Below, piece by piece: positions 1,396 to 18,378 of a DNA stretch of 18,378 nucleotides (position 1 is its first letter; every line of letters begins with the position of its first letter). Source of the stretch: a virus (Duplodnaviria > Heunggongvirae > Uroviricota > Caudoviricetes). The notes under the pieces are model-generated. The model was not told where the DNA came from, did not search any database, and saw only the letters and a list, made by a program, of their open reading frames with translations. Both the position numbers and the translations under genes were made by a program. The stretch is taken from the IMG/VR virus record IMGVR_UViG_3300029190_000051. One strand, given 5' to 3'.

Positions 1396-1397
1396 TG

Positions 1398-2003: not shown

Positions 2004-2015
2004 TCAGAGGGGCCG

Positions 2016-2330: not shown

Positions 2331-2333
2331 AAA

Positions 2334-2367
2334 ATCCCCACCCTTATGTAAGGGTGGGGATTTTTTT
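2334..2367 (+). terminator. Rho-independent terminator after the lysis cassette
   Basis: ATCCCCACCCT / AGGGTGGGGAT forms an 11-bp GC-rich stem with a short loop, followed by a run of seven T. Confidence 0.7.
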
Positions 2368-2474
2368 AACCATTCAATTTTTTCTCTAAATCACATTAAA
2401 AGATTCTTCACCTTCGCTGCTTCAGAATACATTTCAACGATAACGAAGTGAGCGGTAATTAAGGTACAGCCTAT

Positions 2475-2930
2475 ATGGAAATTTTATCTGTAATGAATTC
2501 TGTTGTGACCAGATTACGTGAACACAACTCCGAAATGGATATATTTATTTCATCTAAGGATGCCCAGAAATATATTCCACAGACACAACGAGTTGCAGTG
2601 ATTATTAATTATAGCGGTTCTGTCTTTGCTACGCCCGAAAGCAGTAATGCCATCGTGCAACAGCAAATACTCCGCTTAACCGCCACCGTTATTGTTGGCA
2701 AAAATTGTGATGCATTAAACGCACTTGATCACATACGCAGCGCATTGGGTGGCCTTCCGCTTCCTGATTGTGATCGTCTGCTTTGGCTTGAAAAAGAAAT
2801 TAATACGGGTGAGAGCGGCGGTTTCTGCCGCTACATCCTGGAAATGGCGACCAGCTCGCTGTTTATCGCTGAACAGGAAAGCACGGATCTTCCCCTGCTT
2901 ACGGAAGTTAACTACGAGGAAACTGAATGA
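2475..2930 (+). CDS. Phage tail protein immediately upstream of the sheath gene (Mu gp37-like position; tail terminator/completion-like)
   Basis: 151-aa ORF, first gene after the terminator, overlapping the next ORF by 4 bp. Assigned by gene order and size relative to Mu-like tail modules, not by a recognised motif. Confidence 0.35.
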   Translation: MEILSVMNSVVTRLREHNSEMDIFISSKDAQKYIPQTQRVAVIINYSGSVFATPESSNAIVQQQILRLTATVIVGKNCDALNALDHIRSALGGLPLPDCDRLLWLEKEINTGESGGFCRYILEMATSSLFIAEQESTDLPLLTEVNYEETE

Positions 2931-3124
2931 AATACATCTACAACGGCCCAGCAAGCGGCGTCACCCTTGCCGATGGACAAGAAATCTTATTGTGGCCGAA
3001 CAGTGAAATTGATCTGCCAGAAGACAACGAGTGGGTCATGACCATGATTGCCCGCAATCATCTGACTCCTGTCATCACTCAGGAAGAACAAAATAACGTA
3101 GAGGAAATTGTACATGGCAGCTAA
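2927..3124 (+). CDS. Small phage tail-associated protein (Mu gp38-like position)
   Basis: 65-aa ORF translationally coupled to its neighbours, directly upstream of the sheath gene. Assigned by position only. Confidence 0.3.
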   Translation: MKYIYNGPASGVTLADGQEILLWPNSEIDLPEDNEWVMTMIARNHLTPVITQEEQNNVEEIVHGS

Positions 3125-4538: not shown

Positions 4539-5062
4539 TGGCTGGAAAAATTCAAATTAACCGTATTACCAACGCCAATATTTATCTCGATGGTAATAAC
4601 CTTTTAGGTCGTGCAACAGAAATTAAATTGCCGGATGTAAGTTTAATTATGCAGGAGCATAAAGCACTGGGCATGGTGGGTAAAATCGAACTCCCGGCAG
4701 GTTTCGATAAACTGGAGGGCGAAATTAAATGGAACTCCTTCTATCAGGACGTAATGCGTAAAACGGCAAACCCGTGGCAGGCGGTTGCATTACAGTGCCG
4801 CTCCAGTATTGATTGCTATAACTCCCAGGGGAAAGCGAATCAATTAGCGCTAGTGACACATTTAACCGTGATGTTTAAAAAGAATCCACTGGGCACATTT
4901 AAACAGAATGAAAACCCGGAATTCAGCAGCGCCTTTGGTTGCACTTATATTAAACAAGTAGTTGATGGTGAAACGCTGCTTGAACTTGATTATATGGCCA
5001 ATATTTTCCGGGTTAATGGTGTGGATCAATTAAGTACCTATCGCAATAACATCGGTGGCTAA
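4538..5062 (+). CDS. Tail tube protein
   Basis: 174 aa, starting at an ATG that overlaps the sheath stop (TAATGG). Size and position are typical of a contractile-tail tube subunit. Confidence 0.75.
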   Translation: MAGKIQINRITNANIYLDGNNLLGRATEIKLPDVSLIMQEHKALGMVGKIELPAGFDKLEGEIKWNSFYQDVMRKTANPWQAVALQCRSSIDCYNSQGKANQLALVTHLTVMFKKNPLGTFKQNENPEFSSAFGCTYIKQVVDGETLLELDYMANIFRVNGVDQLSTYRNNIGG

Positions 5063-5112
5063 GTTATTCGGGGCTACGGCCCCGAACTTTGCAAAATAAA
5101 TAAGGACACAAA

Positions 5113-5430
5113 ATGAAAGAACATTATATCTTGCAGTTTCCATTTACGTCGGCAGCAGGAAATAATATCGACACGCTGCAATTACGTCGCCTGAAAGTAA
5201 AAGATATGCGCAACGCCCGCCGGATCAGCGAAAAGCCAGAAGAGTGGGATGAACCGCTGATGGCGGCGATGACCGGACTGGTGCCAGAAGATTTAGCCGA
5301 AATGGATTTGCTGGATTACCAGGCATTGCAGAAACGATTTCAATCCATGCTTACCGTGGTTACAGAATCCTCCCCTGCTATGGCAGGCAATGGCGCTACT
5401 GGCGAGATGGTTTCGCTTTCCGCCCAGTGA
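5113..5430 (+). CDS. Tail assembly chaperone (P2 gpE / Mu gp41-like position)
   Basis: 105-aa acidic protein located between the tube and tape-measure genes, the canonical chaperone position. An overlapping +1 frame stays open to 5518. Confidence 0.55.
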   Translation: MKEHYILQFPFTSAAGNNIDTLQLRRLKVKDMRNARRISEKPEEWDEPLMAAMTGLVPEDLAEMDLLDYQALQKRFQSMLTVVTESSPAMAGNGATGEMVSLSAQ

Positions 5431-5504
5431 GATAGACGCCCTTACCGTCGATGACTTTAGCAACTGGCTGGATGAAGCCAGCGCCCAAATAAAAATCGAA
5501 TATG

Positions 5505-5529
5505 ACTCGCAGACCTGATGTCTGCGAGT
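5505..5529. other. Perfect 10-bp stem-loop in the chaperone to tape-measure spacer
   Basis: ACTCGCAGAC ctgat GTCTGCGAGT. It is not followed by a U-tract. The stop codon of the +1-frame extension (TGA 5516-5518) lies in the loop. Confidence 0.45.
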
Positions 5530-5619
5530 TTCCCAAGCCCGTCAGGTTTATTTCTTCCCTGCCCCTTTTTTTAGAAAAATAACCAGCGGGCCATTATCAA
5601 TATTTAAAGAGAAACAATT

Positions 5620-7995
5620 TTGGCCAACGATATTATTACCCAGCTTCAGGCGCGTAATGAGACGTTGACGCAGGCAATAGCCCGTTACGGCTCACTCAAC
5701 GCCAGAACATTGTTAACTCTCTCTACTCAGCAGGCGACAGTTATCAAACTAACGCAGCAGCTTGCCGATTCCGCTCTCCGCCTGGAGGAAAATAGCCGCA
5801 GCCGCGCTAATCTGATGGAGAAAACCCAAACATTTGCCGGGCAATTTAGCAAAGTATTCAATGTTGAAGCCCCCGACTGGAAGTTGCCGTATGAGTTTCA
5901 GGACAACATGGTCAATATGGCGACCAAAGGTGGGATGAATGCTACAACCCGCGAGACGCTCAGCCTTAATCTGCGCGACTGGAGCATGGATTTTAACCAG
6001 CAGCAGACCACCTTACAGAACGCAGCCCAAACGCTGATCGAAGGCAATTTGTCGTCGATGCAGGATCTCAACCGTTATATGCCGGAGATCGCCAAAGCTG
6101 CCACCGCCACGCGCGAAAGTGCTGAAACGTGGGCGAATGCCGCGCTCGCGACTCATGATCGACTGAATATTGCCCCGGAAAATTTCCACGCCGCGCAAAA
6201 CATGATGTACGGCATTAGCAAAAGCGGTGGGCCTGCCATTGCTGAACAAACGCAGTGGATAGAGAAATTTGCAGGTAAAACCGGCGCTCAGGGTCTGGAA
6301 GGTATGGCTGAACTGACTGCCGCCATGCAGATCGCAATGAAAAATGGGGCCAGCGCCAGTGCGGCGGCGGAGAATTTTGACCACTTTCTGCAAACCACCT
6401 TTTCGAAAAAAACCGATAGCTGGTTCGCCAGCCAGGGCGTCGATCTGCAAGGCTCTCTGCTTGAACATCAGCAAAACGGTATGGGTGTTAGCGAAGCCAT
6501 GACTCATATCGTACAAATGCAGCTTGAGAAGATGAACCCGGCGATCCTCGACACCTTCAAACGTACTATGCAGATTGAAGATTTATCTGCTCGCAGCAAT
6601 GCGCTGCAATCGATGGTGTCGCAATTTAATCTGGGCGAAATGTTCGGCGATGTGCAAACGGTGGAATTCCTGGCACCTATGCTGGCGAATATGGAGGAAT
6701 ATCGCCAGTTAAAAGCCTCTGCCATGCAAGCCACCAGCAAGAATCTGATTAACGCTGACTTTTCTGCGCAAATGGCCTCGCCCATTGAACAGACTAAAGC
6801 GTTACAGCTGGCATTAAATGATTTATGGCTCAGCATTGGTTTGCAGCTTATGCCGGCGATTGGCGAGCTGGCACAAAGCCTTACGACGGTTATTCGCCAG
6901 TTCAGCGCCTGGCTACGCGAACATCCGGCGCTGGTGCAAAACATTGCGAAAATCGTCGGGGCGGTTTGGCTGTTTAACGGCGCGCTGAATGTTTTAAAGC
7001 TGGGCGCGAACCTCATCACCTCGCCGTTTATTCGTCTGGTCGATATCTTCCTGAAAGTCAAGGCAAGTCTGGCGCTCACAGGCGGGGCAAGTAAGATGCT
7101 ATCAGCGGTTAAGTCATTGGGTGGCGGCGCAAAATGGCTAATGCAACTGCTTGGTCGTGGCCTGATTGGCGCACTGAAACAGGTAGGTCAGACCGTCTTC
7201 TGGTTGGGTAGGGTTTTATTGATGAATCCCATTGGTCTGGTCATCACTGCGATTGCGGGCGCTGCTTATCTGATTTGTCGCAACTGGGAGCCTATCTCCA
7301 GGTTCTTTTCGACCATCTGGCAACGTATCACCACGGCCTTTGACGGCGGCATTGCAGGAATTTGTCGGTTGATTCTCGACTGGTCACCGCTGGAGTTGTT
7401 CTATAGCGCCTTTTCCAGTGTGATGAATTGGTTTGGTGTCGAGATGCCTGCAAGTTTTAGCGAGTTCGGCAGCAATCTTCTGGGCAGTCTGGTTGACGGC
7501 ATAATGAATGCCTTCCCCGCTCTGAAAGGCATTATTGATCAGGTAAAAAACGCCATCCCAGACTGGCTAAAAACCACGATGGGTATTAGTACAGAAGGAT
7601 CGGCTACAGCTATTACAAGCACGACTAATACCGCATCCGTCTCCCCCGCGACCGTTGTTCCAGGCGTTGCCGGTGCGATTTTAACACCGCCGGTGGGCAA
7701 ACAACTCGCGCCATCCGGCAAAACGGCTACGCCGTCATCGGCGCCAGCGGCAAAAAATACAGCCGCCAAACCCGTATCTGCCTCTTTACCTGGTAAATCC
7801 GTAACCAAACCGGCGACGCTACCCTCCCGTTCCTCAGGAAAAGTCCAGGTAAATTTTTCGCCACAAATTACCGTGCAGGGTAACGGACAAAACACCACTA
7901 AAGAGATTCAGAACGTGTTGACGATGAGTAAACGCGAACTGGAAAGAATGATTAACGATGTAATGGCGCAGCAGCAGCGCCGGGGGTATGCCTGA
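5620..7995 (+). CDS. Tail tape measure protein
   Basis: 791 aa, the largest ORF, downstream of the chaperone. It has hydrophobic segments in the C-terminal third and a Ser/Thr/Pro/Ala-rich low-complexity tail. It starts at a TTG (5620) after AAAGAGAAA; the first in-frame ATG is about 65 codons in. Confidence 0.85.
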   Translation: MANDIITQLQARNETLTQAIARYGSLNARTLLTLSTQQATVIKLTQQLADSALRLEENSRSRANLMEKTQTFAGQFSKVFNVEAPDWKLPYEFQDNMVNMATKGGMNATTRETLSLNLRDWSMDFNQQQTTLQNAAQTLIEGNLSSMQDLNRYMPEIAKAATATRESAETWANAALATHDRLNIAPENFHAAQNMMYGISKSGGPAIAEQTQWIEKFAGKTGAQGLEGMAELTAAMQIAMKNGASASAAAENFDHFLQTTFSKKTDSWFASQGVDLQGSLLEHQQNGMGVSEAMTHIVQMQLEKMNPAILDTFKRTMQIEDLSARSNALQSMVSQFNLGEMFGDVQTVEFLAPMLANMEEYRQLKASAMQATSKNLINADFSAQMASPIEQTKALQLALNDLWLSIGLQLMPAIGELAQSLTTVIRQFSAWLREHPALVQNIAKIVGAVWLFNGALNVLKLGANLITSPFIRLVDIFLKVKASLALTGGASKMLSAVKSLGGGAKWLMQLLGRGLIGALKQVGQTVFWLGRVLLMNPIGLVITAIAGAAYLICRNWEPISRFFSTIWQRITTAFDGGIAGICRLILDWSPLELFYSAFSSVMNWFGVEMPASFSEFGSNLLGSLVDGIMNAFPALKGIIDQVKNAIPDWLKTTMGISTEGSATAITSTTNTASVSPATVVPGVAGAILTPPVGKQLAPSGKTATPSSAPAAKNTAAKPVSASLPGKSVTKPATLPSRSSGKVQVNFSPQITVQGNGQNTTKEIQNVLTMSKRELERMINDVMAQQQRRGYA

Positions 7996-8948
7996 TGTAT
8001 GCCGTTTTAGGAGAGATTGAATTTAAGGTTGTCACATTCTGGGACGGCTTTAAAAGCACAATGGGCGTGGATTACGCCACACATGCCCGTATAGAAGGCA
8101 AACCCGGCGTGCAGTTTATTGGCGATAAGCTGGATATGCTGGCGCTGGAATTTTCCCTGCACAGCCAGTTTTGCCAGCCCACAACAGAGCTGAACCGACT
8201 GCGTGAAGCCATGCTTGCTCACAAGGCGATGGCACTGGTATTTGGCAATGGCGATTATCGCGGCTGGTTTGTGATTACGGAGCTAACCGCCACCCACCAG
8301 CACACCGATCCCTGGGGCAATGTGATTGCCCAAAACGGAACGATGTCGCTCCAGGAGTACACCGGCGATCCTAAAAATCCACTTTTACCTCCGGCGATTA
8401 CCACCCAGGAGCCCAACATCGAGGAAAAGGCGAGCGATTTTCCCGACAAGGTGGAGTCCTGGTTTGATCAGATATTAAACGCCATCGAAGAAGGTATGCG
8501 TAAGGCCAAAGAGATGCTGGATGAACTGACACAAGCCATTGAAGATATTAAAAAAACGGTGGCAAAAGTGAAAGCAATGATTAAAGAGGCCAAAGCGTTA
8601 AAAGAAAAGTGTGAAAAGATAATTACGTCATTGAAAAAGACAATCGACGCCATCGAAACCCTGTTTAAACAGCCAATGGATCTGCAAACGCTGGCAGGAC
8701 TCCCAAAAGCGTTGTCGGCGCAGATTAAAACTTTACTGGGTAACATGCCAGGTATCCGGGACTGCGCCAATGACGCCAGTACACTGGTTGACCATGCTCA
8801 GGCGCTTTTCGACGACATTACCAGCGACATCGCCGAAGCGACGTTTGATAAAGCCGCAACGTTGGTTGATCAGGCACGAACAACGGTACAACAAACCACT
8901 CCCACAGTGAGCCAGCTTGCTGCCGCGACCATTACGAGGATCTGGTGA
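7995..8948 (+). CDS. Tail protein, P2 gpU-like / Mu gp43 N-terminal-like, with a C-terminal coiled-coil extension
   Basis: 317 aa. The N-terminal roughly 125 aa (MYAVLGEIEFKVVTF...GDKLDMLALEFSLH...) resemble gpU-type proteins in pattern and position. The C-terminal roughly 190 aa are Ala/Lys/Glu/Leu-rich and predicted helical. The start overlaps the tape-measure stop (ATGA-type coupling). Confidence 0.55.
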   Translation: MYAVLGEIEFKVVTFWDGFKSTMGVDYATHARIEGKPGVQFIGDKLDMLALEFSLHSQFCQPTTELNRLREAMLAHKAMALVFGNGDYRGWFVITELTATHQHTDPWGNVIAQNGTMSLQEYTGDPKNPLLPPAITTQEPNIEEKASDFPDKVESWFDQILNAIEEGMRKAKEMLDELTQAIEDIKKTVAKVKAMIKEAKALKEKCEKIITSLKKTIDAIETLFKQPMDLQTLAGLPKALSAQIKTLLGNMPGIRDCANDASTLVDHAQALFDDITSDIAEATFDKAATLVDQARTTVQQTTPTVSQLAAATITRIW

Positions 8949-9157
8949 TGCGATACCTTGAACATATCACCACCGACGGCGAACGCTGGGATAATCTGGC
9001 ATGGCATTACTACGGTGATGCGCTGGCTTATGAACGCATAATCGCCGCCAATCCACATGTAGCCATTTACCCGGTACTGCCTTCCGGTATTCAGCTCATT
9101 ATTCCGGTCATTTCCGTCAATAAAACCTTATCGGAGATCCCACCATGGCTGAGATAA
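8945..9157 (+). CDS. Tail protein X (P2 gpX-like, LysM-like fold)
   Basis: 70 aa with the pattern G..WD.LAWHYYGDA...ERIIAANPHV....LPSGIQLIIP, which fits the recalled gpX signature (YYG...ANP...LP.G..L). Confidence 0.7.
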   Translation: MMRYLEHITTDGERWDNLAWHYYGDALAYERIIAANPHVAIYPVLPSGIQLIIPVISVNKTLSEIPPWLR

Positions 9158-10185
9158 GCGTAACTGGTGGCGTCTTTGCCACACTCACGCCCATTTTTAC
9201 CCTCTGGTATGGGCATAAAGATATCACTTATGACATCACACCCTATGTCACCAGCATCAGTTACCACGACAGCATCAAAAACGAGTCGGATACCATCGCA
9301 ATTACACTGGATGACACAGATGGACGCTGGATAAAAGAGTGGTATCCCGGCAAAGGCGATACGCTGGCGCTGCATATGGGTTATCAGGGAGAGAAGCTGC
9401 TCGATTGTGGTCAGTATATTATTGATAAAATTGATATTTCAGCGCCACCTTCTACGGTAAATATTGATGGCATCGCCACTTCCGTCAATCAGGCGCTGCG
9501 CACCCGTAACAGCCAGGGTTTTGAAGAAACGACGCTTTCGGCTATCGCCAGCCGTATCGCACAAACTCACGGCCTAAAGCTGGTGGGCAAAATCGAGCCT
9601 CTGACAATTGACCGGGTGACACAGTACGGCGAAACCGATGTTGGATTTCTCAAACGTCTGGCCAGTGAATATGGTTATGCCGTAAAAGTGACGACGAAAG
9701 AGCTGATTTTTTCACATTTACCCACGCTGCGCTGCCTGGCACCTGTGAAAAAGATCGACCGCAAAGACGTTTCGCATTTCACCTTCAAAGATACCATTAA
9801 CCGTATCTACAAAAACGCCACCGTACAGCATCAAAATAGTAAGAAAAAAGAACTGGTTATCTACACTCACAACAGCCAGCAAAAACCGTCTGCCCGTGGA
9901 GTCGGCACCAGTGCCGACACGCTAAAACTGAACAGTCGGGCGACGGACGTTGGCGCAGCACAGGCAAAAGCCAACGCTGCACTCGACAGCCACAACGAAT
10001 ATCAGCAAACCGGAACGCTCACAATGATGGGCTGCCCGGAACTGACGGCGGGCAATAAAATCGAGCTAACCGATTTTGGCGTGCTTTCCGGTCAATGGCT
10101 AATTGATAAATCGACTCACAGTTTTGTGCGCAGCGGCTATACCACTGAAATCGACGTGTCGCGCGGGCCAGCGACCAGCCAGTAA
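9145..10185 (+). CDS. Baseplate hub protein (P2 gpD-like / Mu gp44-like)
   Basis: 346 aa, in the conserved U-X-D position after the tape measure. Size and order support the call. Confidence 0.7.
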   Translation: MAEISVTGGVFATLTPIFTLWYGHKDITYDITPYVTSISYHDSIKNESDTIAITLDDTDGRWIKEWYPGKGDTLALHMGYQGEKLLDCGQYIIDKIDISAPPSTVNIDGIATSVNQALRTRNSQGFEETTLSAIASRIAQTHGLKLVGKIEPLTIDRVTQYGETDVGFLKRLASEYGYAVKVTTKELIFSHLPTLRCLAPVKKIDRKDVSHFTFKDTINRIYKNATVQHQNSKKKELVIYTHNSQQKPSARGVGTSADTLKLNSRATDVGAAQAKANAALDSHNEYQQTGTLTMMGCPELTAGNKIELTDFGVLSGQWLIDKSTHSFVRSGYTTEIDVSRGPATSQ

Positions 10186-10194
10186 GGAGGAAAT

Positions 10195-10896
10195 ATGAAA
10201 GGAGTAACCCGTCAAACGGGGATTATCAGCGATATTGACGAAACCAGCGTTCGGGTGCGGGTCACGCTCCCGGAGTGTGACAATCTGAAGAGCAACTGGC
10301 TTGCGGTACTTCAACGCAATTCCCAGGACAATAAAGACTACTGGCTACCGGATATGGGCGAGCAAGTGGAAGTTCTGCTGGACAATAACGGTGAAGATGG
10401 CGTGGTGCTGGGCGCAGTTTATTCTACGGTTGACACCGCGCCTGTAGCCTCGCGCGACAAACGTTACGTCCAGTTTTCTGATGGCGCAGCGTTTGAATAT
10501 GACCGCAGCACGCACCAGCTGACGATCAACGGCGGTATCGAGAAAATCGTGATTGAGGTTATCAACGGTACCTGCCTGACATCGCCCAACGTTGAGATTA
10601 AAGCCCAACAGGTCACCGTGACTTCCGATACCGTCGATGTTAAAGCGACCGATGTCAGCATCGACGCCACTAAGGTCGAGGTTAAAGCAGCAGCAGTGAC
10701 GGTAGATGCGCCCATGAGCACCTTTACTGGCAACGTCACGGTAATGAAAAAACTCACCTGGCTTGGCGGGATGGCAGGAAGTGGAGGCATCGGTAACGCA
10801 GCCACGATAACCGGCAATGTCAACGTGATCGGCAACGTTCAGGCCAGCGGCGCATTGCAGGACAGCGGTGGCAACTCCAACCACCATTCACACTGA
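10195..10896 (+). CDS. Baseplate central spike (P2 gpV-like / gp5-VgrG-like) with a His-rich C-terminal tip
   Basis: 233 aa. The N-terminal region is OB-fold-like, followed by repetitive beta-strand-like V/T/D-rich segments (VTVTSDTVDVKATDVSIDATKVEVKAAAVTVDA). The C-terminus is ...GGNSNHHSH, consistent with an apex metal-binding His motif. Confidence 0.75.
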   Translation: MKGVTRQTGIISDIDETSVRVRVTLPECDNLKSNWLAVLQRNSQDNKDYWLPDMGEQVEVLLDNNGEDGVVLGAVYSTVDTAPVASRDKRYVQFSDGAAFEYDRSTHQLTINGGIEKIVIEVINGTCLTSPNVEIKAQQVTVTSDTVDVKATDVSIDATKVEVKAAAVTVDAPMSTFTGNVTVMKKLTWLGGMAGSGGIGNAATITGNVNVIGNVQASGALQDSGGNSNHHSH

Positions 10897-10902
10897 CGTT
10901 TA

Positions 10903-10931
10903 ACCCGCCTGATGGCGGGTTTTCTCTTTTT
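10903..10931 (+). terminator. Rho-independent terminator-like hairpin between the spike and wedge genes
   Basis: ACCCGCC tgat GGCGGGT followed by TTTCTCTTTTT. Confidence 0.5.
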
Positions 10932-10994
10932 AATCAATCAGTTTTCTAAATCGCTTTAATATCTCCACAGCCCGTTCAGGGCGAAAATACCCTC

Positions 10995-11354
10995 ATGAAC
11001 ACAAAAACACGCCCCTCAACGCTGCACTGGCAACCGGCCTTGCTGCGGCCTGAAGAATACGTCTGCGGACTGGATGATATTCACCAGGCAATACACATCA
11101 TTCTGCGTACACCGCGCGGCAGTGATCCCCACAGACCGCTGTTTGGCAGCAACTTGTGGCACTACATCGATTACCCCATCGAGCGGGCTATCCCGCATGT
11201 GGTACGGGAGTCGGTGGAAGCCATCCGCCAGTGGGAACCGCGCTGTCGGTTGCTGAAGGTGACACCAGTAATCGACGGCGAACATCTGACGTTACGTGTG
11301 CAATGGCGCGCCGCTGACGGCGTTATCAACTCAACGGAGGTGTTATGGCGATAG
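10995..11354 (+). CDS. Baseplate wedge protein (P2 gpW-like / T4 gp25-like)
   Basis: 119 aa with IHIILRTPRGSDPHRPLFGSNLWHYID...IRQWEPRCRL, which fits the recalled gpW/gp25 pattern (ILRTP.GSR...YGS.L...WEPR). Confidence 0.8.
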   Translation: MNTKTRPSTLHWQPALLRPEEYVCGLDDIHQAIHIILRTPRGSDPHRPLFGSNLWHYIDYPIERAIPHVVRESVEAIRQWEPRCRLLKVTPVIDGEHLTLRVQWRAADGVINSTEVLWR

Positions 11355-12460
11355 CCGAACCCAATTTTATTGACCGCGATCCTGCGCAAATTACCAGTGA
11401 GATGATTGCGCAATACGAAGATGCCAGTGGTAAAAAACTCTATCCGGCACAGGCTGAGCGGTTGCTCATCGACCTGTTTGCCTATCGTGAAAACCTTGTA
11501 CGCATCGCCATTCAGGAAGCGGCGAAACAAAACCTGGTCGCGTATTCCCGCGCGCCAATGCTGGATTATTTAGGAGAGCTGGTGGGCGTTCACCGTTTGC
11601 CTGCGCAGCCAGCAAAAACGACGTTGCAGTTTTCGGTCGTCAGTGCGTATACCAGCAATATCCTGATTCCCCAGGGGACGCGGGCCAGTGCCTCTGATAG
11701 CGTGATGTTCGCCACCGATGAAGATGTTCTGCTTCCGGCCTGGAGTTTGCATATCGCCGTTCCTGCCACCAGCCTCGCAGCAGGTGAACAGGGTAACGGC
11801 TGGCAGCCTGCACAAATTAGCGCTCTGGTCGACAGGATTGGTCATTATGACATCAACGTAACCAACCTGACTGCGTCAACGGGCGGCTGCGGTGAAGAGA
11901 GCGATGACGCATTGCGCCAGCGTATCCAACTGGCACCAGAAAGCTTTAGTAATGCGGGCAGCTATGGCGCATACCGCTTTCATACGCTTTCTGTTAGCCA
12001 GTCGATTATTGACGTTGCAGTACTGGGGCCGGACGAGGGATTGCCAGAAGGCTGCGTGGAGATCTACCCGCTAACCCTGAATGGACTGCCAGGAATAGAA
12101 CTGCTCGCGCAAATCGAACAGGAGGTTAGCAAGGAGAAAAAACGTCCGCTGACCGACAAAGTGAGTGCGAAATGCGCTCTTCGAGTGCCGTATGAGATCC
12201 GTGCGCAGCTAACGCTGTTTACCACCGCCGATCAGGAGACAACGCTGGCTGCGGCGCGTAAAGCGATTAGCCTCTGGACGCAACAGCGGCAGAAACATCT
12301 GGGGCAAGACATTGTGCCAAACCAGATAATCAAAGTGTTACAGGTCGATGGCGTCTATGACGTTGCGCTGAACTTGCCTACAAAACGTATTTTGCAGGCG
12401 CATGAATGGGCGGAATGCACTGCAATAGACGTCACGATCGCCGGAGTTAGCGATGGATAA
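11345..12460 (+). CDS. Baseplate wedge protein (P2 gpJ-like)
   Basis: 371 aa, overlapping the W-like gene by 10 bp and the I-like gene by 8 bp. Position and size fit the W-J-I baseplate triplet. Confidence 0.75.
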   Translation: MAIAEPNFIDRDPAQITSEMIAQYEDASGKKLYPAQAERLLIDLFAYRENLVRIAIQEAAKQNLVAYSRAPMLDYLGELVGVHRLPAQPAKTTLQFSVVSAYTSNILIPQGTRASASDSVMFATDEDVLLPAWSLHIAVPATSLAAGEQGNGWQPAQISALVDRIGHYDINVTNLTASTGGCGEESDDALRQRIQLAPESFSNAGSYGAYRFHTLSVSQSIIDVAVLGPDEGLPEGCVEIYPLTLNGLPGIELLAQIEQEVSKEKKRPLTDKVSAKCALRVPYEIRAQLTLFTTADQETTLAAARKAISLWTQQRQKHLGQDIVPNQIIKVLQVDGVYDVALNLPTKRILQAHEWAECTAIDVTIAGVSDG

Positions 12461-13169
12461 ATTGCTACCACCGCCGCCGCTTGCCAGCGATGAGCGTTTT
12501 TCGATTCTGGCAAATATCGCCGCCGAGCGTTTTGCCCAACTCGATCTGACGGCGTTGATGGTTTATCTGGTCGACCTGGTTGATGCTTCGGCATTACCAG
12601 CCCTTGCAGAACAATTTCACGTTCAGGGGTTGGAAGGTTGGTTATTTACCACCGATGAGCGGGAGAAACGCGAGTTAATTAAACAAGCCATTGAACTGCA
12701 TAAATATAAAGGAACAATTTGGGCGGTGCGGCGGGTGCTGGAAATACTCTCCTTACCCGGAACTATTTCAGAATGGTTTGAATATGGGGGAAGGGCTTAC
12801 TTTTTTAAGGTTGATATTACACTAGAGGAAAAAGGATTAAATGAAGATGAATTCAATGCACTTATCACATTAATTCATGAATATAAAAATGTCCGTTCAA
12901 AGCTGGAAAGCATTGTTATTTGGCTTATTAATCGAAGCCCAATACCAGTTATTGGCAGTGCCATGCAAGGAGGGGAAGTCATTACAGTATTGCCTCCTGT
13001 TGCAGAAAGCCTCAGCCAGTCATCTGGAATATTTTTAGCGACAGGTTATTGTGTGGAGGAATATATTCAACTACTACCTTATCAACCCGATCGACTAACA
13101 CAATCCCAACCGATGAAGGTCGGCACAGGATACTGGAGCACCGAAATTATGTCTGTATATCCGGAGTAA
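12453..13169 (+). CDS. Baseplate protein (P2 gpI-like) with a C-terminal extension
   Basis: 238 aa. [13 protein letters not shown]...[17 protein letters not shown]...EW.EY...FKVDITLEE...GEVITVLP parallels the recalled P2 gpI sequence. About 55 residues follow the gpI-like end and finish with a similar ...IMSVYPE. Confidence 0.7.
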
Positions 13170-13171
13170 TA

Positions 13172-14782
13172 ATGGCAAGTGAATTTTTTACAATATTAAC
13201 TGCTGCAGGCAAAGCCAAAATTGCCTCAGCACTGGCCGAGCAAAAACAGATCCGTCTGCAAACTATGGTAGTTGGCGACGGTAATGGTAAATATATCGAA
13301 CCGACAGAAAGTCAGACCAAAGTAGTCCATGAGGTCTGGCGTGGTCAGCTCAATACATTAAAAATTGCGCCAGATAATCCGGCCTGGGTTATCGCAGAAG
13401 CGATTATTCCCGAACAAGTCGGAGGCTGGTATGTACGCGAAGTTGGGTTACTGGATACCGACGGCACGATGGTCGCTATTGGTAAATTCCCGGAAACCTA
13501 TAAGCCACGATTACCTGCGGGGGCCAGTAAGCAAATCGTTATACGCGCGGTCATGGAAGTCACCAATGCAGATGCGGTGACGCTTTTGATCGACCCTTCA
13601 GTCGTTGTGGCAACCAGGGAATATGTCGATGACGCGTTGAAAACACATCAGCAATCACGAAATCATCCTGATGCGACGCTGACACAAAAAGGTTTTACGC
13701 AGCTGAGTAATGCGACTAATAGCGATGATGAAACCAAAGCGGCCACGCCAAAAGCGGTAAAAACGGCATATGACCTGGCAAATAGCAAAGCTGCCACCAG
13801 TCATAATCATGCCTGGAATCAGATTACTGGTATCCCTGATGGTACACTGACGCAGAAAGGAGTCGTTAAGCTTAACAATACAACAAATAGCACCAGTACG
13901 ACGGAAGCTGCAACACCAAGTGCGGTTAAGGCAGCGATGGATAAGGCTATTGCTGCGGCACCGTCCAGCCATACCCATGCCTGGGGGCAAATAACAGGTA
14001 TCCCCGACGGTACGCTGACGCAAAAAGGGGTCGTGAAACTTAATAATGCGACCAACAGCACCAGTACGACGGAAGCTGCAACGCCGAACGCTGTTAAGGC
14101 AGCGATGGATAAGGCTATTGCTGCGGAAAGCTGTCCTGTTGGGATGCCTATTCCCTGGCCATCTGATTCTGTACCTTCAGGCTACGCTCTGATGACAGGT
14201 CAGACATTTAATAAAACCTCCTATCCCAAACTGGCAATTGCATATCCATCTGGTGTTATTCCTGATATGCGCGGATGGATAATTAAAGGAAAACCATCCA
14301 GTGGGCGCGCTATATTATCTACTGAACTGGATGGAGTTAAATCACATAACCATACGGGCAGTATTTCGAGTACGGACTTAGGGACGAAATCTGTATCATC
14401 AATAGATCTAGGAACAAAGAACACTCAGTCATTTAATCATGGGATAAAAACAACAAATACAGCAGGCGCGCATAGCCATGATAGTGGTTCTGGCGAAAGT
14501 AGTGAGGGGGGAAAACCTCGGTATGGTACTCGTGATAACACAACAAATAATTTTGGTTCTGGTGAATCAGATCATGACAATTACAAATTTAACACATCCA
14601 CGGATGGAGAGCATGCACATTCAGTTAATGTTGGCTCACACTCTCACTCTGTTATTTTAGGGTCACATAATCATTCAATTGCCCTTGGTTCCCATAATCA
14701 CTCCCTAACCATTAATAATACCGGCAACACCGAAAACACCGTCAAAAATATCGCATTCAACTATATTGTGAGGCTAGCATGA
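13172..14782 (+). CDS. Tail fibre protein (P2 gpH-like N-terminal anchor, tandem fibre repeats, His-motif C-terminal receptor-binding region)
   Basis: Start at the ATG 13172 (GGAG 7 nt upstream), not the track start at 13049. The N-terminus ([28 protein letters not shown]...[34 protein letters not shown]...[34 protein letters not shown]) closely parallels the recalled P2 gpH N-terminus. Three fibre-type repeats follow, and the C-terminus carries [27 protein letters not shown]. Confidence 0.85.
13664..14127 (+). repeat. In-frame tandem repeats inside the tail fibre gene (about 3 copies of about 165 bp / 55 aa)
   Basis: Copies at about 13664-13798 (degenerate), 13799-13966 and 13967-14127. The last two share long identical stretches (AGCACCAGTACGACGGAAGCTGCAAC and GTTAAGGCAGCGATGGATAAGGCTATTGCTGCGG). 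Protein unit: [48 protein letters not shown]. Confidence 0.75.
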
Positions 14783-15486
14783 ATACTTTTACCTTTTCCG
14801 ATGAAGCTCAAATACTAACTGTATATAATTTTTCACAAGACTCCCAAGAATATATCGGTGAGTCTGATGCATACATTGCACCTAATACAGGCTTGCCAAA
14901 TTATTGCACATTAATTTCACCTCCCGAAAAGGTTCCTGGTTTTACTCCAGTGTGGGAGAATGAAACATGGAGACTTATTGAAGATCATCGAGGCCAAACT
15001 GTTTATAACAAAGTTGATGGTAGCCAGCTTATTATTCAAGAATTGGGCCAATTACCTGAAAATGTAACAGTCATTTCCCCGACAGGTTCTTTTGAACGTT
15101 GGGATGGTGAAAAATGGCAACCATCTATAACCGATGCTAAAGAGGCGAAATACTCTGCAATCAAAAATCAACGCGATGCCATCACAACCGATTACATCAT
15201 CATCAACAACCATCACTTCCACAGTGATACAAATAGCCGTATCCAACAGCTTTCACTCACAAAAATGGGAGCGGAGAAAAAAATTCCGCCAGGTTTAATG
15301 TGGAAAACTAAAAATAATGGTCTGATTGAGTTAACCAACGAAATCGCTGCCCAGTTTGAATCGGTCACCATGGATCACGATATGCGCTTGTTCGCAAACG
15401 CCCAGCGTCATATCGCGGCGGTGGAAGCACTGGACGATATTCAGGCGGTGCTCGACTACGATTATTCAACAGGCTGGCAACCATGA
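14779..15486 (+). CDS. Tail fibre assembly protein (lambda Tfa-like chaperone)
   Basis: 235 aa. The N-terminal half ([102 protein letters not shown]) parallels the recalled lambda Tfa N-terminus almost motif for motif. The start overlaps the fibre stop (ATGA). Confidence 0.8.
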
Positions 15487-15938
15487 GTAAAACCACTGTC
15501 TGGCTCGCTTGTTATAAGGGCCGAACAGAGCACCGTGGTATTGCCCGACTGGCTGACTGGCTTACCCGTAAAATCACACGCGGTCATTATTCCCACTGTG
15601 AATTAGCCGTTAAGCATGGTGAAAAGAGATACCTTTGTTACTCTGCATCACTGCGCGATCGCGGTGTACGCGGAAAGATAATGCCATTGCCAGCGGATAA
15701 GTGGGATATGCTGCCGCTCCAGGCTAGCCTTCAGGATGTGGAAACTTTTTTCCGTAAACATGATGGCAAAAAATATGACTGGCGCGGAGCATTAGGAATT
15801 ATTACCGGTAATAAAGAACAGCGCGATCGCCTGTTTTGCAGTGAATTTTGTGCTGAATTTCTGCAACTGAAGGAAAGCTGGCGCTATTCTCCAAACCACT
15901 TGTACGCTTTAGTCAGCAGCTGGCAATACCAGCAATAA
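15483..15938 (+). CDS. Hypothetical cargo protein, last gene of the tail operon; possible permuted papain-like (His then Cys) hydrolase
   Basis: 151 aa, translationally coupled to tfa (ATGA). It has His-containing GHYSHCELAV upstream of a Cys-containing LFCSEFCAEF segment, which resembles the C-[ST]-E-F catalytic-Cys motif of YiiX/YaeF-type permuted papain-fold proteins. The functional call is weak. Confidence 0.4.
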   Translation: MSKTTVWLACYKGRTEHRGIARLADWLTRKITRGHYSHCELAVKHGEKRYLCYSASLRDRGVRGKIMPLPADKWDMLPLQASLQDVETFFRKHDGKKYDWRGALGIITGNKEQRDRLFCSEFCAEFLQLKESWRYSPNHLYALVSSWQYQQ

Positions 15939-15943
15939 ATCAC

Positions 15944-15962
15944 GCCGGGCTTTATGCCCGGC
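15944..15962. terminator. GC-rich hairpin shared by the convergent tail operon and nucleotidyltransferase operon
   Basis: GCCGGGC ttta(t) GCCCGGC lies 6 nt after the cargo-gene stop and overlaps the last codons of the minus-strand gene. Confidence 0.5.
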
Positions 15963-16752
15963 ACATTACCGTTTGATACAGCAAATTATCTAGCTCCCGA
16001 ACATCTCCATCTCGACTGTCCGGTAAAATCGGTGGAATTTCCCCGCGCGCCAGTTCCGCGCGAATAAACGCATGCAATAAAGGACGGCGCAGTCCATATT
16101 CCGCTTCACTCGCACGCTGTTTACGCTCCAGCAATTCATCTATTTCTGCGCGTAAGGCCGCATCCAACTCACTTCCCGCCAGTAACTCGGCAAAGCGCAT
16201 TGGCGGCACGCCTTTTCCCGCTTCAACCCAGCGTACGGCCAGCAGCGGGCGCAGCACGTAAAAGTATTTTTTCAGTCGAACTTCGTCGCCCTGTAAATAA
16301 CCGCGAAAGTTTTTCTGCGCCATCGAATAGTAATGCCAACGCGCGCGCAACGAAGAAAACCACATTGGGACCATTGCCTTAAGCGCCGTTATCGTTTCTT
16401 CATCTTGTTGATAGACCACCGGAGAATCCAGCCATTCTATCAGCGTCGGATTCGCGCCTTTCAATAATCCCAGCGCCTTACGCCACTCCCAACCGGAAAC
16501 ATCTAACTCGTCGTCGATAGGCAGTTCGATAACATCGCGCGGTGACTCTACACGCAGATACCATTCTAGCGGATGGACATACAAAAACCGTACATCGTAG
16601 TCGCTATCGGGCGAGGCAAATCCCCAGCCGCGGCTGCCTGATTCACAGGCGTACAGCACTTTCACGCCATAGCGACGTTCTATTTCTTTTAACTGCTGCG
16701 ATACCCGTTCGCGCATCGCAGCACTGACTCCATTTAATGGCATTTGACTCAT
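15952..16752 (-). CDS. Pol-beta-superfamily nucleotidyltransferase-fold protein
   Basis: 266 aa. VLYACESGSRGWGFASPDSDYDVRFLYV contains the G-S...D-x-D signature of minimal nucleotidyltransferases, with a further acidic cluster (IDDELDVSGWEW). The start overlaps the upstream gene's stop (ATGA on the minus strand). Confidence 0.65.
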   Translation of the reverse strand: MSQMPLNGVSAAMRERVSQQLKEIERRYGVKVLYACESGSRGWGFASPDSDYDVRFLYVHPLEWYLRVESPRDVIELPIDDELDVSGWEWRKALGLLKGANPTLIEWLDSPVVYQQDEETITALKAMVPMWFSSLRARWHYYSMAQKNFRGYLQGDEVRLKKYFYVLRPLLAVRWVEAGKGVPPMRFAELLAGSELDAALRAEIDELLERKQRASEAEYGLRRPLLHAFIRAELARGEIPPILPDSRDGDVRELDNLLYQTVMCRA

Positions 16753-17876
16753 CCTTTGATATTCACTAACCCGTGCAGAACCTGATCCAGACCACCAAAT
16801 ACAGAGATGTTATCGATCCGCTCAGCCACTCTCTCCAGCGTTTCCAGTTCTTTTAAGCGTAACGCCACCGGGTTGTTTTCCATGACTTTAGCGGTATTGA
16901 GTAACGAACGCGTCGCTGCCGTTTCTTCACGCCGACGAATCACATTCGCCTGCGCAGATTTCTCTGCCTCAACCAGCTGCGCGAGGATATTTTTCATATC
17001 ACCAGGCAGGACGATATCTTTCACCCCTAATGAGGCAATCTCCATACCAAATGGCAACATGCGCGATTTCACCTGTTCGCTGACAACGTCATCAATGACC
17101 TGTTTATCTTCCAGCAACTCATCCAGCGTACGCGTACCTACCGCTTCACGCAGTGCAAATTGCAATTCCCGATACAAATGATCAATCGGCTTCGTTAACT
17201 GACTAAATGCCAATAACACGTCGCTGTAGCGCCAGTTGGCGGCGAGGTTAATCCGCAGATTGACCTTATCTTTCGTTAAGATTTCTTGCCCGCTGACTTC
17301 CAGTACCTGCAAGCGGGTGTCAACCACTTCAGCTTCAACCAGATGGTTAATTTTCCAGTACGCAGTCAGTCCCGGCGGTAACAGCGCCTGCGTTTTACCA
17401 TCGATTTTCAGTACACCTACGTGCCAGGCCGGAACCTGCACCGTCAGTATCGCATCGCGGCCTTTAACTGCCCCTTTGCGCCGTGGCTGCAATACCGCAT
17501 TCATCACCTCCGTTTGAACCTGGACTTGCTGCGTACTCATCCGCACCAGCGTCAAATCATCCTCTACACGCCAGTACAAACGACGCGTTGATGGCGGCAG
17601 GATCTCCAGCAAAATACCGTCCATATACAACGCCCCGGCTTCAGTCTCCGACAAGTCGGCCACCACGCAATATCTTTCCACCCACTCTGGCTGAAAGCGG
17701 CGCAAATAATCCGCCAGCACGTCGGGAACTTCGCTGCCATCGAGCGTAATCAGCAAGACTTCTGGCGTATTTAACCAGGGTAAAAGATGCTCGCCTGCAT
17801 GCAGCACTTTGTAGTAATCGCCATTTCTGGAAAGTAATGCCAGCTGATCTTTTCTTACGCTTATTTTCTTAATCAT
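16749..17876 (-). CDS. Soluble SPFH/band-7-like domain protein with an unassigned N-terminal domain of about 150 aa
   Basis: 375 aa. The C-terminal roughly 220 aa have stomatin/HflC-like character (LEVSGQEILTKDKVNLRINLAANWRYSD..., ...AEKSAQANVIRRREE..., ...LRLKELETLERVAERIDNISVFGG). No N-terminal hydrophobic membrane anchor is visible. AGGAA lies 6 nt upstream of the ATG. Confidence 0.5.
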   Translation of the reverse strand: MIKKISVRKDQLALLSRNGDYYKVLHAGEHLLPWLNTPEVLLITLDGSEVPDVLADYLRRFQPEWVERYCVVADLSETEAGALYMDGILLEILPPSTRRLYWRVEDDLTLVRMSTQQVQVQTEVMNAVLQPRRKGAVKGRDAILTVQVPAWHVGVLKIDGKTQALLPPGLTAYWKINHLVEAEVVDTRLQVLEVSGQEILTKDKVNLRINLAANWRYSDVLLAFSQLTKPIDHLYRELQFALREAVGTRTLDELLEDKQVIDDVVSEQVKSRMLPFGMEIASLGVKDIVLPGDMKNILAQLVEAEKSAQANVIRRREETAATRSLLNTAKVMENNPVALRLKELETLERVAERIDNISVFGGLDQVLHGLVNIKG

Positions 17877-18378
17877 TATCTATTCCTTGCTTAATAGCCG
17901 TCGCGGAAGCAGATACGAAGCGACAGGGGAATTCCCTTTTGCCTGTTACCCGGCGTCTTTATCGGCGACGTTATCGGGGATCGCTGACTGCGCAATCCCT
18001 CATTTTTTATTTAATAAGTTACAACCAGTATTCATTTCAGGAATGAATTCGGGAATCGAACCCGTAATTGGCGTCAAAGGCTGACGGAACACGCCCGGAA
18101 AACAGCCTGGCCGTTCCTGGTGTGCCGACGGGGTTTAATCCCCTTTGAAATTCGGTATCAACGCAAAAGAGTTATTGCGAAAAGTGTGCCAAAAGTGAAA
18201 TAACACACTTAATATATTGAATAATAAAGATTTAATTAAATCAGATAACTTGCCGGATAATAATTTGCGTTAAATTTTTATCTGTATTTATCGCTAATTA
18301 TCGAAAGAGATAAATAGTTAAGAGAAGGCAAAATGAATATTATCAGTTCTGCTCGCAAACGAATTCCCGTACACTGAA

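What the first reader, a model, noticed from the sequence alone, without database searches (positions are those of the whole stretch)
15952..17876. Translationally coupled operon of a soluble SPFH-like protein and a nucleotidyltransferase, abutting the tail cluster: candidate conflict or stress module
The two minus-strand genes overlap by 4 bp and converge on the tail operon, with only a shared hairpin between them. The first product has an SPFH/band-7-like C-terminal domain but lacks the N-terminal membrane anchor typical of stomatin/HflK/C proteins, and has an unassigned N-terminal domain of about 150 aa. The second has a Pol-beta nucleotidyltransferase signature (GS...DxD). I do not recognise this pair as a named system. 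Nucleotidyltransferases paired with scaffold-like partners are recurrent in anti-phage and RNA-repair systems, and this location next to a phage-derived island is where defence genes tend to cluster.
Basis: partly seen in the sequence, partly recalled or inferred. Interest (0 to 1): 0.55.

Follow-up and report, generated by a model that had tools for sequence, protein, structure and literature searches.

The report
Orphan RNA-repair operon in E. coli
The two genes are a cut-down branch of the bacterial Rtc RNA-repair system: a membrane-less stomatin-like scaffold, an RNA 3'-end nucleotide-adding enzyme and a structured leader RNA, which sit next to the phage-tail genes only by accident.

Summary
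Window 16749-17876(-) encodes a 375-aa SPFH/Band_7 protein with no membrane anchor. Window 15952-16743(-) encodes a full-length RlaP (PF10127) nucleotidyltransferase with its catalytic residues intact. The 4-bp overlap needs a non-conserved ATG; the conserved start leaves a 5-nt gap.

The link to the tail cluster is incidental. 1632 of 5426 complete E. coli genomes carry the pair between lysC and yjbD, and only about 196 have the tail cluster there.

In other proteobacteria this slipin family is the first gene of RtcR-controlled operons: rtcR, then leader RNA, slipin, RtcB, RlaP and RtcA. Enterobacteria keep only slipin-RlaP, and E. coli has also lost the adjacent rtcR.

- a sigma-54 promoter at 18191-18176;
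- a composite motif at 18313-18278, the same one that abuts rtcR in other taxa;
- a roughly 290-nt leader RNA supported by covariation, with a tRNA T-arm at 18064-18050.

Best reading: a ligase-less satellite of the Rtc RNA-repair regulon, probably switched on in trans by the RtcR encoded at rtcBA. This kind of system has been predicted computationally but never studied experimentally. PADLOC gives no hit, so nothing supports it being an anti-phage defence system.

The parts
18278..18313 (-). Candidate RtcR upstream activating sequence: TTATC-N6-GATAA-N4-CGATA-N6-GATAA
   Evidence: The composite motif occurs once in the window and in 0 of 200 shuffles. The same motif abuts the rtcR start codon in Klebsiella and Mangrovibacter, and degenerate forms do so in many beta- and gamma-proteobacterial loci. 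It aligns without gaps, 35/45 identical, to the K. oxytoca rtcR-proximal region (score 40; highest of 300 shuffles 31). Binding by RtcR is inferred, not shown.
18176..18191 (-). Sigma-54 (-24/-12) promoter TGGCACACTTTTCGCA
   Evidence: Single match in the window, 0.10 expected by chance. The equivalent TGGCACG-N4-(T/C)(G/C)GC(A/T) element lies at the same position in enteric and other loci. No sigma-70-like site was found in 15800-18378.
17889..18165 (-). Structured leader RNA of about 290 nt. P2 hairpin 18144-18129; long P3 hairpin 18130-18085; tRNA-type T-arm CGGG-TTCGATT-CCCG 18064-18050; hairpin 18048-18030; hairpin 17999-17977; long 3' hairpin 17970-17899
   Evidence: On 8 enteric sequences, 60 predicted pairs are 94% paired and 29 show compensatory changes. 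No shuffle out of 500 reaches this, and slid controls give 3-8. Covariance model R1 of the 5' domain hits window 18155-18043 at 116 bits. It also finds full-length matches at the same place upstream of slipin genes in non-enteric loci (L013 E 7.6e-9, L019 8e-6, L015 2e-4) and none in the K-12 control loci. In the 24-sequence alignment, 21 of 26 pairs show compensatory changes. There is no ATG-initiated ORF and no Rfam or ARAGORN hit.
16749..17876 (-). Soluble slipin (SPFH/Band_7) protein, 375 aa: three tandem beta units, the SPFH alpha/beta core and a long C-terminal helix
   Evidence: Pfam Band_7. A profile of the family matches stomatin in the PDB at 2e-32 over residues 146-352. AF2 model pLDDT 87.9. 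Foldseek hits stomatin, HflK/C, prohibitin, erlin, QmcA and major vault protein. No TM segment. dN/dS 0.063 between the two E. coli alleles.
15952..16743 (-). RlaP nucleotidyltransferase (PF10127), 263 aa from the conserved start; the ORF could extend to 16752
   Evidence: Pfam E 4e-96, full length. GS, DxD and a third Asp are invariant. The conserved start is the second ATG. dN/dS 0.063. Pseudomonas homologues add 1-2 NMP to RNA 3'-OH ends (PMC12776372).
15941..15965 (-). Intrinsic-terminator-like hairpin ending the operon, also the 3' boundary of the convergent tail cluster
   Evidence: 10-bp stem with 7 GC pairs, followed by ATTTATTGCT.

Best explanation
The locus is a reduced, ligase-less module of the RtcR-type RNA-repair system.

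Shown by homology and context:
- Gene 2 is an RlaP enzyme, a family that extends broken RNA 3'-OH ends by one or two nucleotides.
- Gene 1 belongs to a soluble SPFH family that in other proteobacteria is the first gene of sigma-54/RtcR-controlled operons, which also encode the RtcB ligase, often RlaP and sometimes the RtcA cyclase.
- These operons are preceded by a conserved structured leader RNA carrying tRNA T-arm modules.

Inferred for E. coli:
- RNA damage produces tRNA fragments with 2',3'-cyclic phosphate ends.
- These fragments activate the RtcR encoded at the distant rtcR-rtcBA locus.
- RtcR binds the retained TTATC/GATAA composite site at 18313-18278 and fires the sigma-54 promoter at 18191-18176.
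- The transcript carries the T-arm leader, the slipin gene and the RlaP gene.

More speculative:
- The slipin oligomerises through its C-terminal helix into a ring or cage, as stomatin, HflK/C and vault shells do, but in the cytosol.
- Together with the leader-derived RNA, it concentrates or confines the promiscuous RlaP on damaged RNAs.
- RtcB, made from the other operon, then reseals those RNAs.
For: Protein identities.

Context in 80 species-level loci: an RtcR CARF domain lies divergently upstream in 40, RtcB lies nearby in 48 (downstream on the same strand in about 45), RtcA is present in 21 and RlaP in 25, always downstream on the same strand. Klebsiella, Superficieibacter, Mangrovibacter and Lonsdalea have rtcR, then leader, slipin and RlaP, with no ligase. 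This shows the two-gene version is itself an RtcR-controlled unit.

Regulatory region: sigma-54 promoter, no sigma-70-like site, and the composite motif shared with rtcR-adjacent loci. The motif lies 122 nt from the -24 element, against 132 nt in K. oxytoca, a difference of one helical turn.

RtcR supply: rtcR-rtcB is present at 80% coverage or more in 4839 of 5426 E. coli genomes. E. coli RtcR is 62% identical to the slipin-linked K. oxytoca RtcR, and the C-terminal DNA-binding region is nearly identical.

Leader RNA: covariation support, and T-loop motifs upstream of 64 of 77 slipin genes.

Selection: dN/dS 0.063 for both genes, and the leader is 280/296 identical while dS is 0.17-0.41.

Published biochemistry: RlaP adds NMPs to RNA 3'-OH ends and prefers damaged tRNA mimics (PMC12776372). 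The RtcR CARF domain binds 5' tRNA halves ending in cyclic phosphate (PMC7790460).
Against: - No rtcR and no ligase gene lie in cis in E. coli.
- The E. coli rtcBA upstream region resembles the composite motif only loosely, so activation in trans is unproven.
- RlaP products end in 3'-OH, whereas RtcB needs 3'-phosphate. The preprint itself flags this incompatibility (PMC12776372).
- Deleting the P. aeruginosa homologue PaFlo8 gave no phenotype in standard assays (PMC13086221).
- The leader in the window lacks the canonical tRNA-like second module of most relatives and is not recognised by ARAGORN or Rfam.
- Its single-sequence folding energy is unremarkable (z -0.48).
- Cage formation and RNA binding by the slipin rest only on analogy with other SPFH proteins.
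Confidence: 0.62

Rival explanations
1. An anti-phage or abortive-infection module. RlaP would act as a toxin that blocks tRNAs by adding nucleotides to their 3' ends, as MenT-type nucleotidyltransferase toxins do. The slipin would be its sensor or restraint. The pair would sit in a defence island next to phage-derived genes.
For: RlaP labels intact tRNAs and rRNAs as well as broken ones in vitro (PMC12776372), so uncontrolled activity could be harmful. The lysC-yjbD spacer is variable: a tail cluster, a zeta-toxin-family gene, or nothing. The pair is present in only 30% of E. coli genomes.
Against: No PADLOC model matches either protein. The family is tied to RtcR, RtcB and RtcA, not to defence genes. 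Only 4 relatives occur in 2.9 million viral contigs. The pair occupies the same chromosomal position across enterobacterial genera. The tail cluster accompanies it in only about 196 of 1632 E. coli genomes.
Confidence: 0.12
2. A decaying remnant. After losing rtcR and the ligase, the E. coli genes are no longer expressed or useful, and the sigma-54 promoter and leader are fossils.
For: rtcR is absent in cis. K-12 and about 70% of E. coli genomes have lost the pair and keep only fragments of the UAS and leader. The P1 helix of the leader is weakened in the window allele.
Against: Both ORFs are intact in 1624 genomes. dN/dS is 0.063 for each gene between alleles with dS of 0.17-0.41, and the leader is more conserved than synonymous sites. 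The catalytic residues are intact. The promoter and composite motif are exact.
Confidence: 0.1
3. A membrane-microdomain SPFH scaffold with a housekeeping role unrelated to RNA. It would attach peripherally to the membrane, and RlaP would be a mere passenger gene.
For: All structurally characterised prokaryotic SPFH proteins (HflK/C, QmcA, archaeal stomatin) work at membranes. PGAP names the protein 'slipin family protein'.
Against: There is no hydrophobic anchor or hairpin and no NfeD partner gene. The gene is consistently linked to RNA-repair genes and to a structured RNA across classes of bacteria.
Confidence: 0.08

Closest known systems
RtcR-RtcB-RtcA RNA-repair operon (E. coli rtcBA; P. 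aeruginosa rtcR / PaFlo8-rtcB-rlaP-rtcA)
   Same: Both have a sigma-54 promoter and an RtcR-type upstream motif. The slipin and RlaP genes are orthologous to those inside Pseudomonas-type rtc operons (PMC13086221; PMC12776372).
   Different: There is no RtcB, RtcA or RtcR at this locus; in E. coli they are encoded about 0.67 Mb away on the K-12 map, by the coordinates. The leader keeps only the first RNA module.
Salmonella rsr-yrlBA-rtcBA operon (Ro60 with Y-like RNAs that have a tRNA-like domain)
   Same: An RtcR/sigma-54 operon in which a ring- or cage-forming RNA-associated scaffold protein and operon-encoded structured RNAs with tRNA features come before the repair enzymes (PMC7790460).
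   Different: The scaffold is an SPFH protein, not a TROVE/Ro protein. The RNA matches no Rfam Y-RNA or tRNA model. No Ro-binding stem is evident.
Stomatin / HflK-HflC / QmcA SPFH cages
   Same: The SPFH core plus a long C-terminal helix is clearly homologous (stomatin E 2e-32; Foldseek 1.6e-15).
   Different: There is no membrane anchor and no NfeD or FtsH partner. Two extra N-terminal beta units repeat the motif of the first SPFH beta segment.
Eukaryotic vault (major vault protein with vault RNA)
   Same: The order of elements is the same: tandem beta repeats, then an SPFH-like shoulder, then a long helix. The particle is cytosolic and RNA-associated. MVP gives the longest Foldseek alignments (442-468 columns) and the highest query TM-scores (0.41-0.43).
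CCA-adding enzymes and MenT-type nucleotidyltransferases
   Same: All are Pol-beta fold enzymes that add nucleotides to RNA 3' ends without a template.
   Different: RlaP is a separate Pfam family (PF10127). It adds one or two nucleotides with little NTP specificity and prefers broken tRNA mimics (PMC12776372).

Membership tests
RlaP (PF10127) nucleotidyltransferase | Full-length match to the family profile above the curated cut-off | tested here: met
   321.9 bits against a cut-off of 23; profile positions 1-248 of 249.
RlaP (PF10127) nucleotidyltransferase | Pol-beta catalytic GS motif and three conserved aspartates | tested here: met
   G36, S37, D48, D50 and D81 are invariant in 19 homologues. 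The three strictly conserved Asp are described in PMC12776372.
RlaP (PF10127) nucleotidyltransferase | Gene neighbourhood with an RNA ligase (the origin of the family name) | tested here: not met
   There is no ligase within the window or at the E. coli locus. RtcB is present in the orthologous operons of other genera and elsewhere in E. coli.
RlaP (PF10127) nucleotidyltransferase | Addition of 1-2 NMP to RNA 3'-OH ends | not testable with these tools
   Shown only for the P. fluorescens and P. aeruginosa enzymes (PMC12776372).
SPFH / stomatin (slipin) family | Band_7/SPFH domain | tested here: met
   PF01145 E 9.7e-27; stomatin in the PDB 2e-32; Foldseek 1.6e-15.
SPFH / stomatin (slipin) family | N-terminal membrane anchor or hydrophobic hairpin | tested here: not met
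   Highest 19-residue hydropathy mean is 1.13, and there is no conserved hydrophobic segment in 42 homologues.
SPFH / stomatin (slipin) family | C-terminal helix used for ring or cage oligomerisation | tested here: inconclusive
   The model has helices at 292-334 and 336-353 that align to the stomatin and HflK helices. Oligomerisation was not modelled.
SPFH / stomatin (slipin) family | NfeD-family partner gene in the operon (typical of prokaryotic stomatins) | tested here: not met
   The only operon partner is RlaP.
RtcR regulon | Sigma-54 -24/-12 promoter | tested here: met
   TGGCACACTTTTCGCA at 18191-18176, 0.10 expected by chance; conserved in relatives.
RtcR regulon | RtcR gene divergently adjacent | tested here: not met
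   yjbD occupies that position in E. coli. rtcR is adjacent in 40 of 80 related loci, including all enteric genera sampled.
RtcR regulon | RtcR binding site upstream of the promoter | tested here: inconclusive
   The composite motif is shared with rtcR-adjacent loci, but I found no experimentally defined RtcR operator to compare it with.
RtcR regulon | [quoted passage not shown] | not testable with these tools
   Shown for the Salmonella operon (PMC7790460).
Known anti-phage defence systems (PADLOC-DB 2.0) | Match of either protein to a defence-system model | tested here: not met
   No family at E up to 0.1.
tRNA / tRNA-like RNA | Cloverleaf recognised by ARAGORN or Rfam RF00005 | tested here: not met
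   There is no hit in the window; only the T-arm is tRNA-like. In relatives a second module is called as a tRNA, with varying anticodons.
Vault-like particle (MVP architecture) | Tandem MVP-type beta repeats before an SPFH-like shoulder and a cap helix | tested here: inconclusive

The most novel reading that the evidence does not exclude
The anchor-less slipin assembles into a cytosolic vault-like shell: beta repeats, then an SPFH shoulder, then a helical cap. Together with the T-arm RNA cut from its own leader, this shell would form a dedicated RNA-repair compartment. It would admit broken tRNAs and confine the promiscuous RlaP. That would make it a bacterial counterpart, possibly a relative, of eukaryotic vault ribonucleoprotein particles. 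In E. coli it would be wired in trans to the RtcR damage sensor.
Probability: 0.18. Interest if true: 0.85.

Novelty: new variant of a known kind. Interest (0 to 1): 0.5.

Why it matters
The function of the Rtc RNA-repair system is still poorly understood. So is the reason why some versions carry a scaffold protein and their own structured RNA.

This locus shows that about 30% of E. coli strains, including O157:H7-type strains and strain 042, have an extra two-gene branch of that system. The branch comes with a clean sigma-54 promoter, a candidate RtcR operator and a roughly 290-nt RNA supported by covariation. All of these can be tested directly in a genetically tractable host.

If trans-activation by RtcR is confirmed, it would define the RtcR regulon beyond rtcBA. 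It would also give the first handle on what a soluble SPFH protein does.

The result also removes a false lead: the neighbouring tail cluster and 'defence island' context are irrelevant.

Tried and rejected
- PADLOC scan of both proteins: no hits. NCBIfam: only sub-threshold HflK/C hits for the slipin and none for RlaP.
- Rfam at E up to 10 on 15700-18378, and ARAGORN on the whole window: nothing in the leader.
- Single-sequence folding of 17990-18160: z -0.48, uninformative. The RNA evidence therefore rests on covariation.
- A canonical cloverleaf for the leader was considered and rejected. Helix P1 closes before the T-arm, supported by an A-U to G-C compensatory change. By my own reading of alignment A3, not a formal count, the strand 3' of the T-arm pairs with a downstream hairpin that covaries between genera.
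- PDB sequence search for RlaP: no solved relative.
- A link between the zeta-toxin-family neighbour and the pair: no zeta homologue in any of the 80 related loci, so I treat it as unrelated.
- blastn between the E. coli and Klebsiella regions upstream of the promoter found nothing. The shared motif emerged only from local alignment and motif comparison.
- Burroughs & Aravind 2016 (PMC5062991) could not be opened. What I say about it comes from memory of its abstract.
Full report
**Observation.**
- The upstream product (375 aa, 16749-17876) carries a Pfam Band_7/SPFH domain at residues 147-318 (E 9.7e-27).
- It has no stretch hydrophobic enough for a membrane anchor: the highest 19-residue Kyte-Doolittle mean is 1.13. 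Among 42 diverse homologues there is no conserved hydrophobic segment.
- The downstream product is a full-length member of PF10127, 'RlaP, RNA repair pathway DNA polymerase beta family' (E 4e-96). The GS motif, the DxD pair and a third aspartate are invariant in 19 homologues.
- A terminator-like hairpin at 15965-15941 ends the operon and abuts the last tail ORF.
- One detail needs correcting. The ATGA overlap depends on an ATG that is missing from the second E. coli allele and from four other genera. The conserved start is at 16743, has a well-spaced AAGGA, and is the one PGAP uses. This leaves a 5-nt gap.

**Where the window comes from, and whether the tail cluster matters.** The window is the E. 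coli chromosome between lysC and yjbD/rluF.
- The gene pair is present in 1632 of 5426 complete E. coli genomes.
- In most of these it is a 93%-identical allele flanked by a zeta-toxin-family gene rather than tail genes. E. coli 042 and strain 2013C-4187 are examples.
- Only about 196 genomes have the tail cluster at this position.
- K-12 lacks the pair but keeps part of the upstream motif and a 23-nt piece of the leader.
- Relatives of the slipin are almost absent from viral contigs: 4 in 2.9 million, one of them this same region.
- The adjacency to the tail cluster is therefore incidental.

**What the family does elsewhere.** The slipin, including its N-terminal domain, defines a large family with 549 clusters at 50% identity and E below 1e-30. 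I fetched 80 species-level loci.
- An RtcR CARF domain is encoded divergently upstream in 40 of them.
- RtcB is nearby in 48, and downstream on the same strand in about 45.
- RtcA is present in 21 and RlaP in 25, always downstream on the same strand. Pfam confirmed the representatives.
- The typical order is rtcR, then leader RNA, slipin, RtcB, then RlaP, RtcA and others.
- This is the arrangement of the P. aeruginosa rtc locus. Its SPFH gene, PaFlo8, has been noted there (PMC13086221), and its RlaP has been shown to add one or two nucleotides to RNA 3'-OH ends, preferring broken-tRNA mimics (PMC12776372).
- In Klebsiella, Superficieibacter, Mangrovibacter and Lonsdalea the operon is reduced to rtcR, leader, slipin and RlaP, next to lysC where that could be seen. 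The two-gene version is therefore itself an RtcR-controlled unit.
- E. coli has this same unit without rtcR.

**Regulatory region.** Three observations point to sigma-54/RtcR control.
- A sigma-54 promoter, TGGCACACTTTTCGCA, lies 300 nt upstream of the slipin start at 18191-18176. It is the only match in the window, with 0.10 expected by chance. No sigma-70-like site was found in the region.
- A further 122 nt upstream lies TTATC-N6-GATAA-N4-CGATA-N6-GATAA (18313-18278). It matched in 0 of 200 shuffles.
- The same composite motif abuts the rtcR start codon in Klebsiella and Mangrovibacter, where it lies 132 nt from the -24 element, one helical turn more. Degenerate forms occur next to rtcR in Pseudomonas, Burkholderia, Chitiniphilus and others.
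- E. coli encodes RtcR at the rtcBA locus. rtcR-rtcB is present at 80% coverage or more in 4839 of 5426 genomes.
- That RtcR is 62% identical to the slipin-linked Klebsiella RtcR, and the C-terminal DNA-binding region is nearly identical.
- I infer that the operon is activated in trans by this RtcR. Binding has not been shown, and the rtcBA upstream region resembles the motif only loosely.

**Leader RNA.** The roughly 290 nt between promoter and start codon are conserved among enteric genera (65% mean column identity).
- They fold into a consensus of 60 pairs, of which 29 show compensatory changes and 94% of cells are paired. No shuffle out of 500 reaches these values, and slid controls give 3-8 compensated pairs.
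- The 5' domain contains a short hairpin, a long hairpin and a perfect tRNA T-arm, CGGG-TTCGATT-CCCG, at 18064-18050.
- A covariance model of this domain finds full-length matches at the same place upstream of slipin genes in distant genera, and none in the K-12 control loci. In the resulting 24-sequence alignment, 21 of 26 pairs show compensatory changes. That alignment was fitted to the model, which favours the structure.
- T-loop motifs occur upstream of 64 of 77 slipin genes. By my own arithmetic, about 0.01 per locus is expected by chance.
- Most non-enteric loci have two modules. The first often ends in NCCA. The second is a cloverleaf that ARAGORN or Rfam calls a tRNA, with an anticodon that differs from species to species.
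- The window keeps only the first module. It is not a cloverleaf and is not recognised by Rfam or ARAGORN.
- Between the two E. coli alleles the leader is 280/296 identical, while synonymous divergence in the genes is 0.17-0.41.

**The slipin protein.** The AF2 model (pLDDT 87.9) shows three tandem beta units at residues 3-44, 70-114 and 143-186.
- The three units share the motif xxGxLxxDGxxxxxLxPGxxxxW.
- They are followed by the SPFH alpha/beta core and a long helix (292-353).
- The 'unassigned' N-terminal domain is thus two extra copies of the first beta segment of the SPFH domain.
- Foldseek matches stomatin (1.6e-15), HflK/C, prohibitin, erlin and QmcA, all of which form rings or cages. 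It also matches major vault protein, which gives the longest alignments and the highest query TM-scores (0.41-0.43).

**Mechanism proposed.**
- Shown elsewhere: RtcR is activated by 5' tRNA halves ending in 2',3'-cyclic phosphate (PMC7790460), and RlaP extends broken RNA 3' ends (PMC12776372).
- Inferred here: RNA damage activates RtcR, which switches on both rtcBA and, through the retained motif and sigma-54 promoter, this operon. RlaP restores nucleotides lost from broken RNAs, and RtcB supplied from the other operon ligates them.
- More speculative: the slipin forms a soluble oligomeric scaffold that, with the leader-derived T-arm RNA, recruits substrates or restrains the promiscuous RlaP.
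- Both genes are under strong purifying selection (dN/dS 0.063), so the module is in use.

**Rivals.**
- A defence or abortive-infection role is not excluded, but it has no positive support.
- A decaying remnant is contradicted by the selection data.
- A membrane-scaffold role is contradicted by the lack of any anchor and by the consistent RNA-repair context.

**Comparison with what is known, and novelty.** The components and their association are not new in kind.
- PF10127 is named for RNA repair, and the SPFH gene in the Pseudomonas rtc locus has been noted (PMC13086221).
- From memory of its abstract, Burroughs & Aravind 2016 predicted SPFH/Band-7 scaffolds with a cognate tRNA-like RNA, together with RlaP, in RNA-repair systems. 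I could not open that paper.
- New here is the enterobacterial, ligase-less, single-module variant. In E. coli specifically, it has been separated from rtcR while keeping the promoter and candidate operator.
- In the paper library I searched, I found no experimental work on the slipin in an RNA-repair role or on the leader RNA.

Noticed in passing
window 223-15938: A headless contractile-tail cluster between lysC and RlaP. It comprises a Mor-family activator (223-570, minus strand), holin, SLT lysin, sheath (3108-4538, 71% aa identity to BcepMu gp39), tube, tape measure, baseplate, fibre and DUF4376. PGAP annotates no head, integrase or transposase genes. It looks like an R-type tailocin or a prophage remnant, present in about 196 of 5426 E. 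coli genomes.
   Followed up: partly
L002:8039-8965 and L003:8039-8965 (E. coli 042 and 2013C-4187): In the commoner E. coli arrangement, a 308-aa zeta-toxin-family P-loop protein (PF06414, E 2.3e-41) occupies the place of the tail cluster, convergent with RlaP. No homologue lies near the slipin in any of the 80 other loci, so it is probably unrelated.
   Followed up: partly
L086:3133-3384 (K-12 yjbD-lysC spacer) against window 18378-18295 and 17965-17943: K-12 keeps the first half of the RtcR-type motif (100% identical to window 18378-18295) and a 23-nt fragment of the leader (21/23, E 0.004). K-12 therefore looks like a deletion derivative of a slipin-RlaP-bearing ancestor rather than the ancestral empty site.
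   Followed up: partly
L010:4145-4705, L034:2904-3700, L065:35-840, L012:5118-5361, L019:4466-4807: Several relatives carry arrays of 3-7 ordinary-looking tRNA genes immediately upstream of the tRNA-like leader and the slipin gene. Whether they belong to the repair operon, for instance as spare tRNAs, is unknown.
   Followed up: no
L011, L015-L017, L019, L023, L032, L043 and others, about 240-440 nt upstream of the slipin start: The second leader module in non-enteric loci is a cloverleaf with a normal D-arm and T-arm, but a short acceptor stem of 4-5 bp. Its anticodon differs between species (Met, Ile, Thr, Leu, Ser, Lys, Arg, Phe, Val, Pro, or unreadable), unlike a functional tRNA gene.
   Followed up: partly
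L013:5989-7536, L025:3274-4881, L048; P0122, P0125, P0127: Slipin homologues of 500-550 aa match the query's N-terminal region twice. This suggests that the number of N-terminal beta repeats varies within the family.
   Followed up: no
L043:8431-9786; L017:7200-7562: Other recurrent genes in the slipin-RtcB operons are a HEAT-repeat protein and a small treble-clef zinc-finger protein (PF13451).
   Followed up: no
L001:1-12296 (E. coli FDAARGOS_497): In one genome with the window-type allele, the tail tape-measure gene is truncated by an IS26-bounded resistance island carrying tet(A), OXA-1, aac(6')-Ib-cr and aac(3)-IIe.
   Followed up: no
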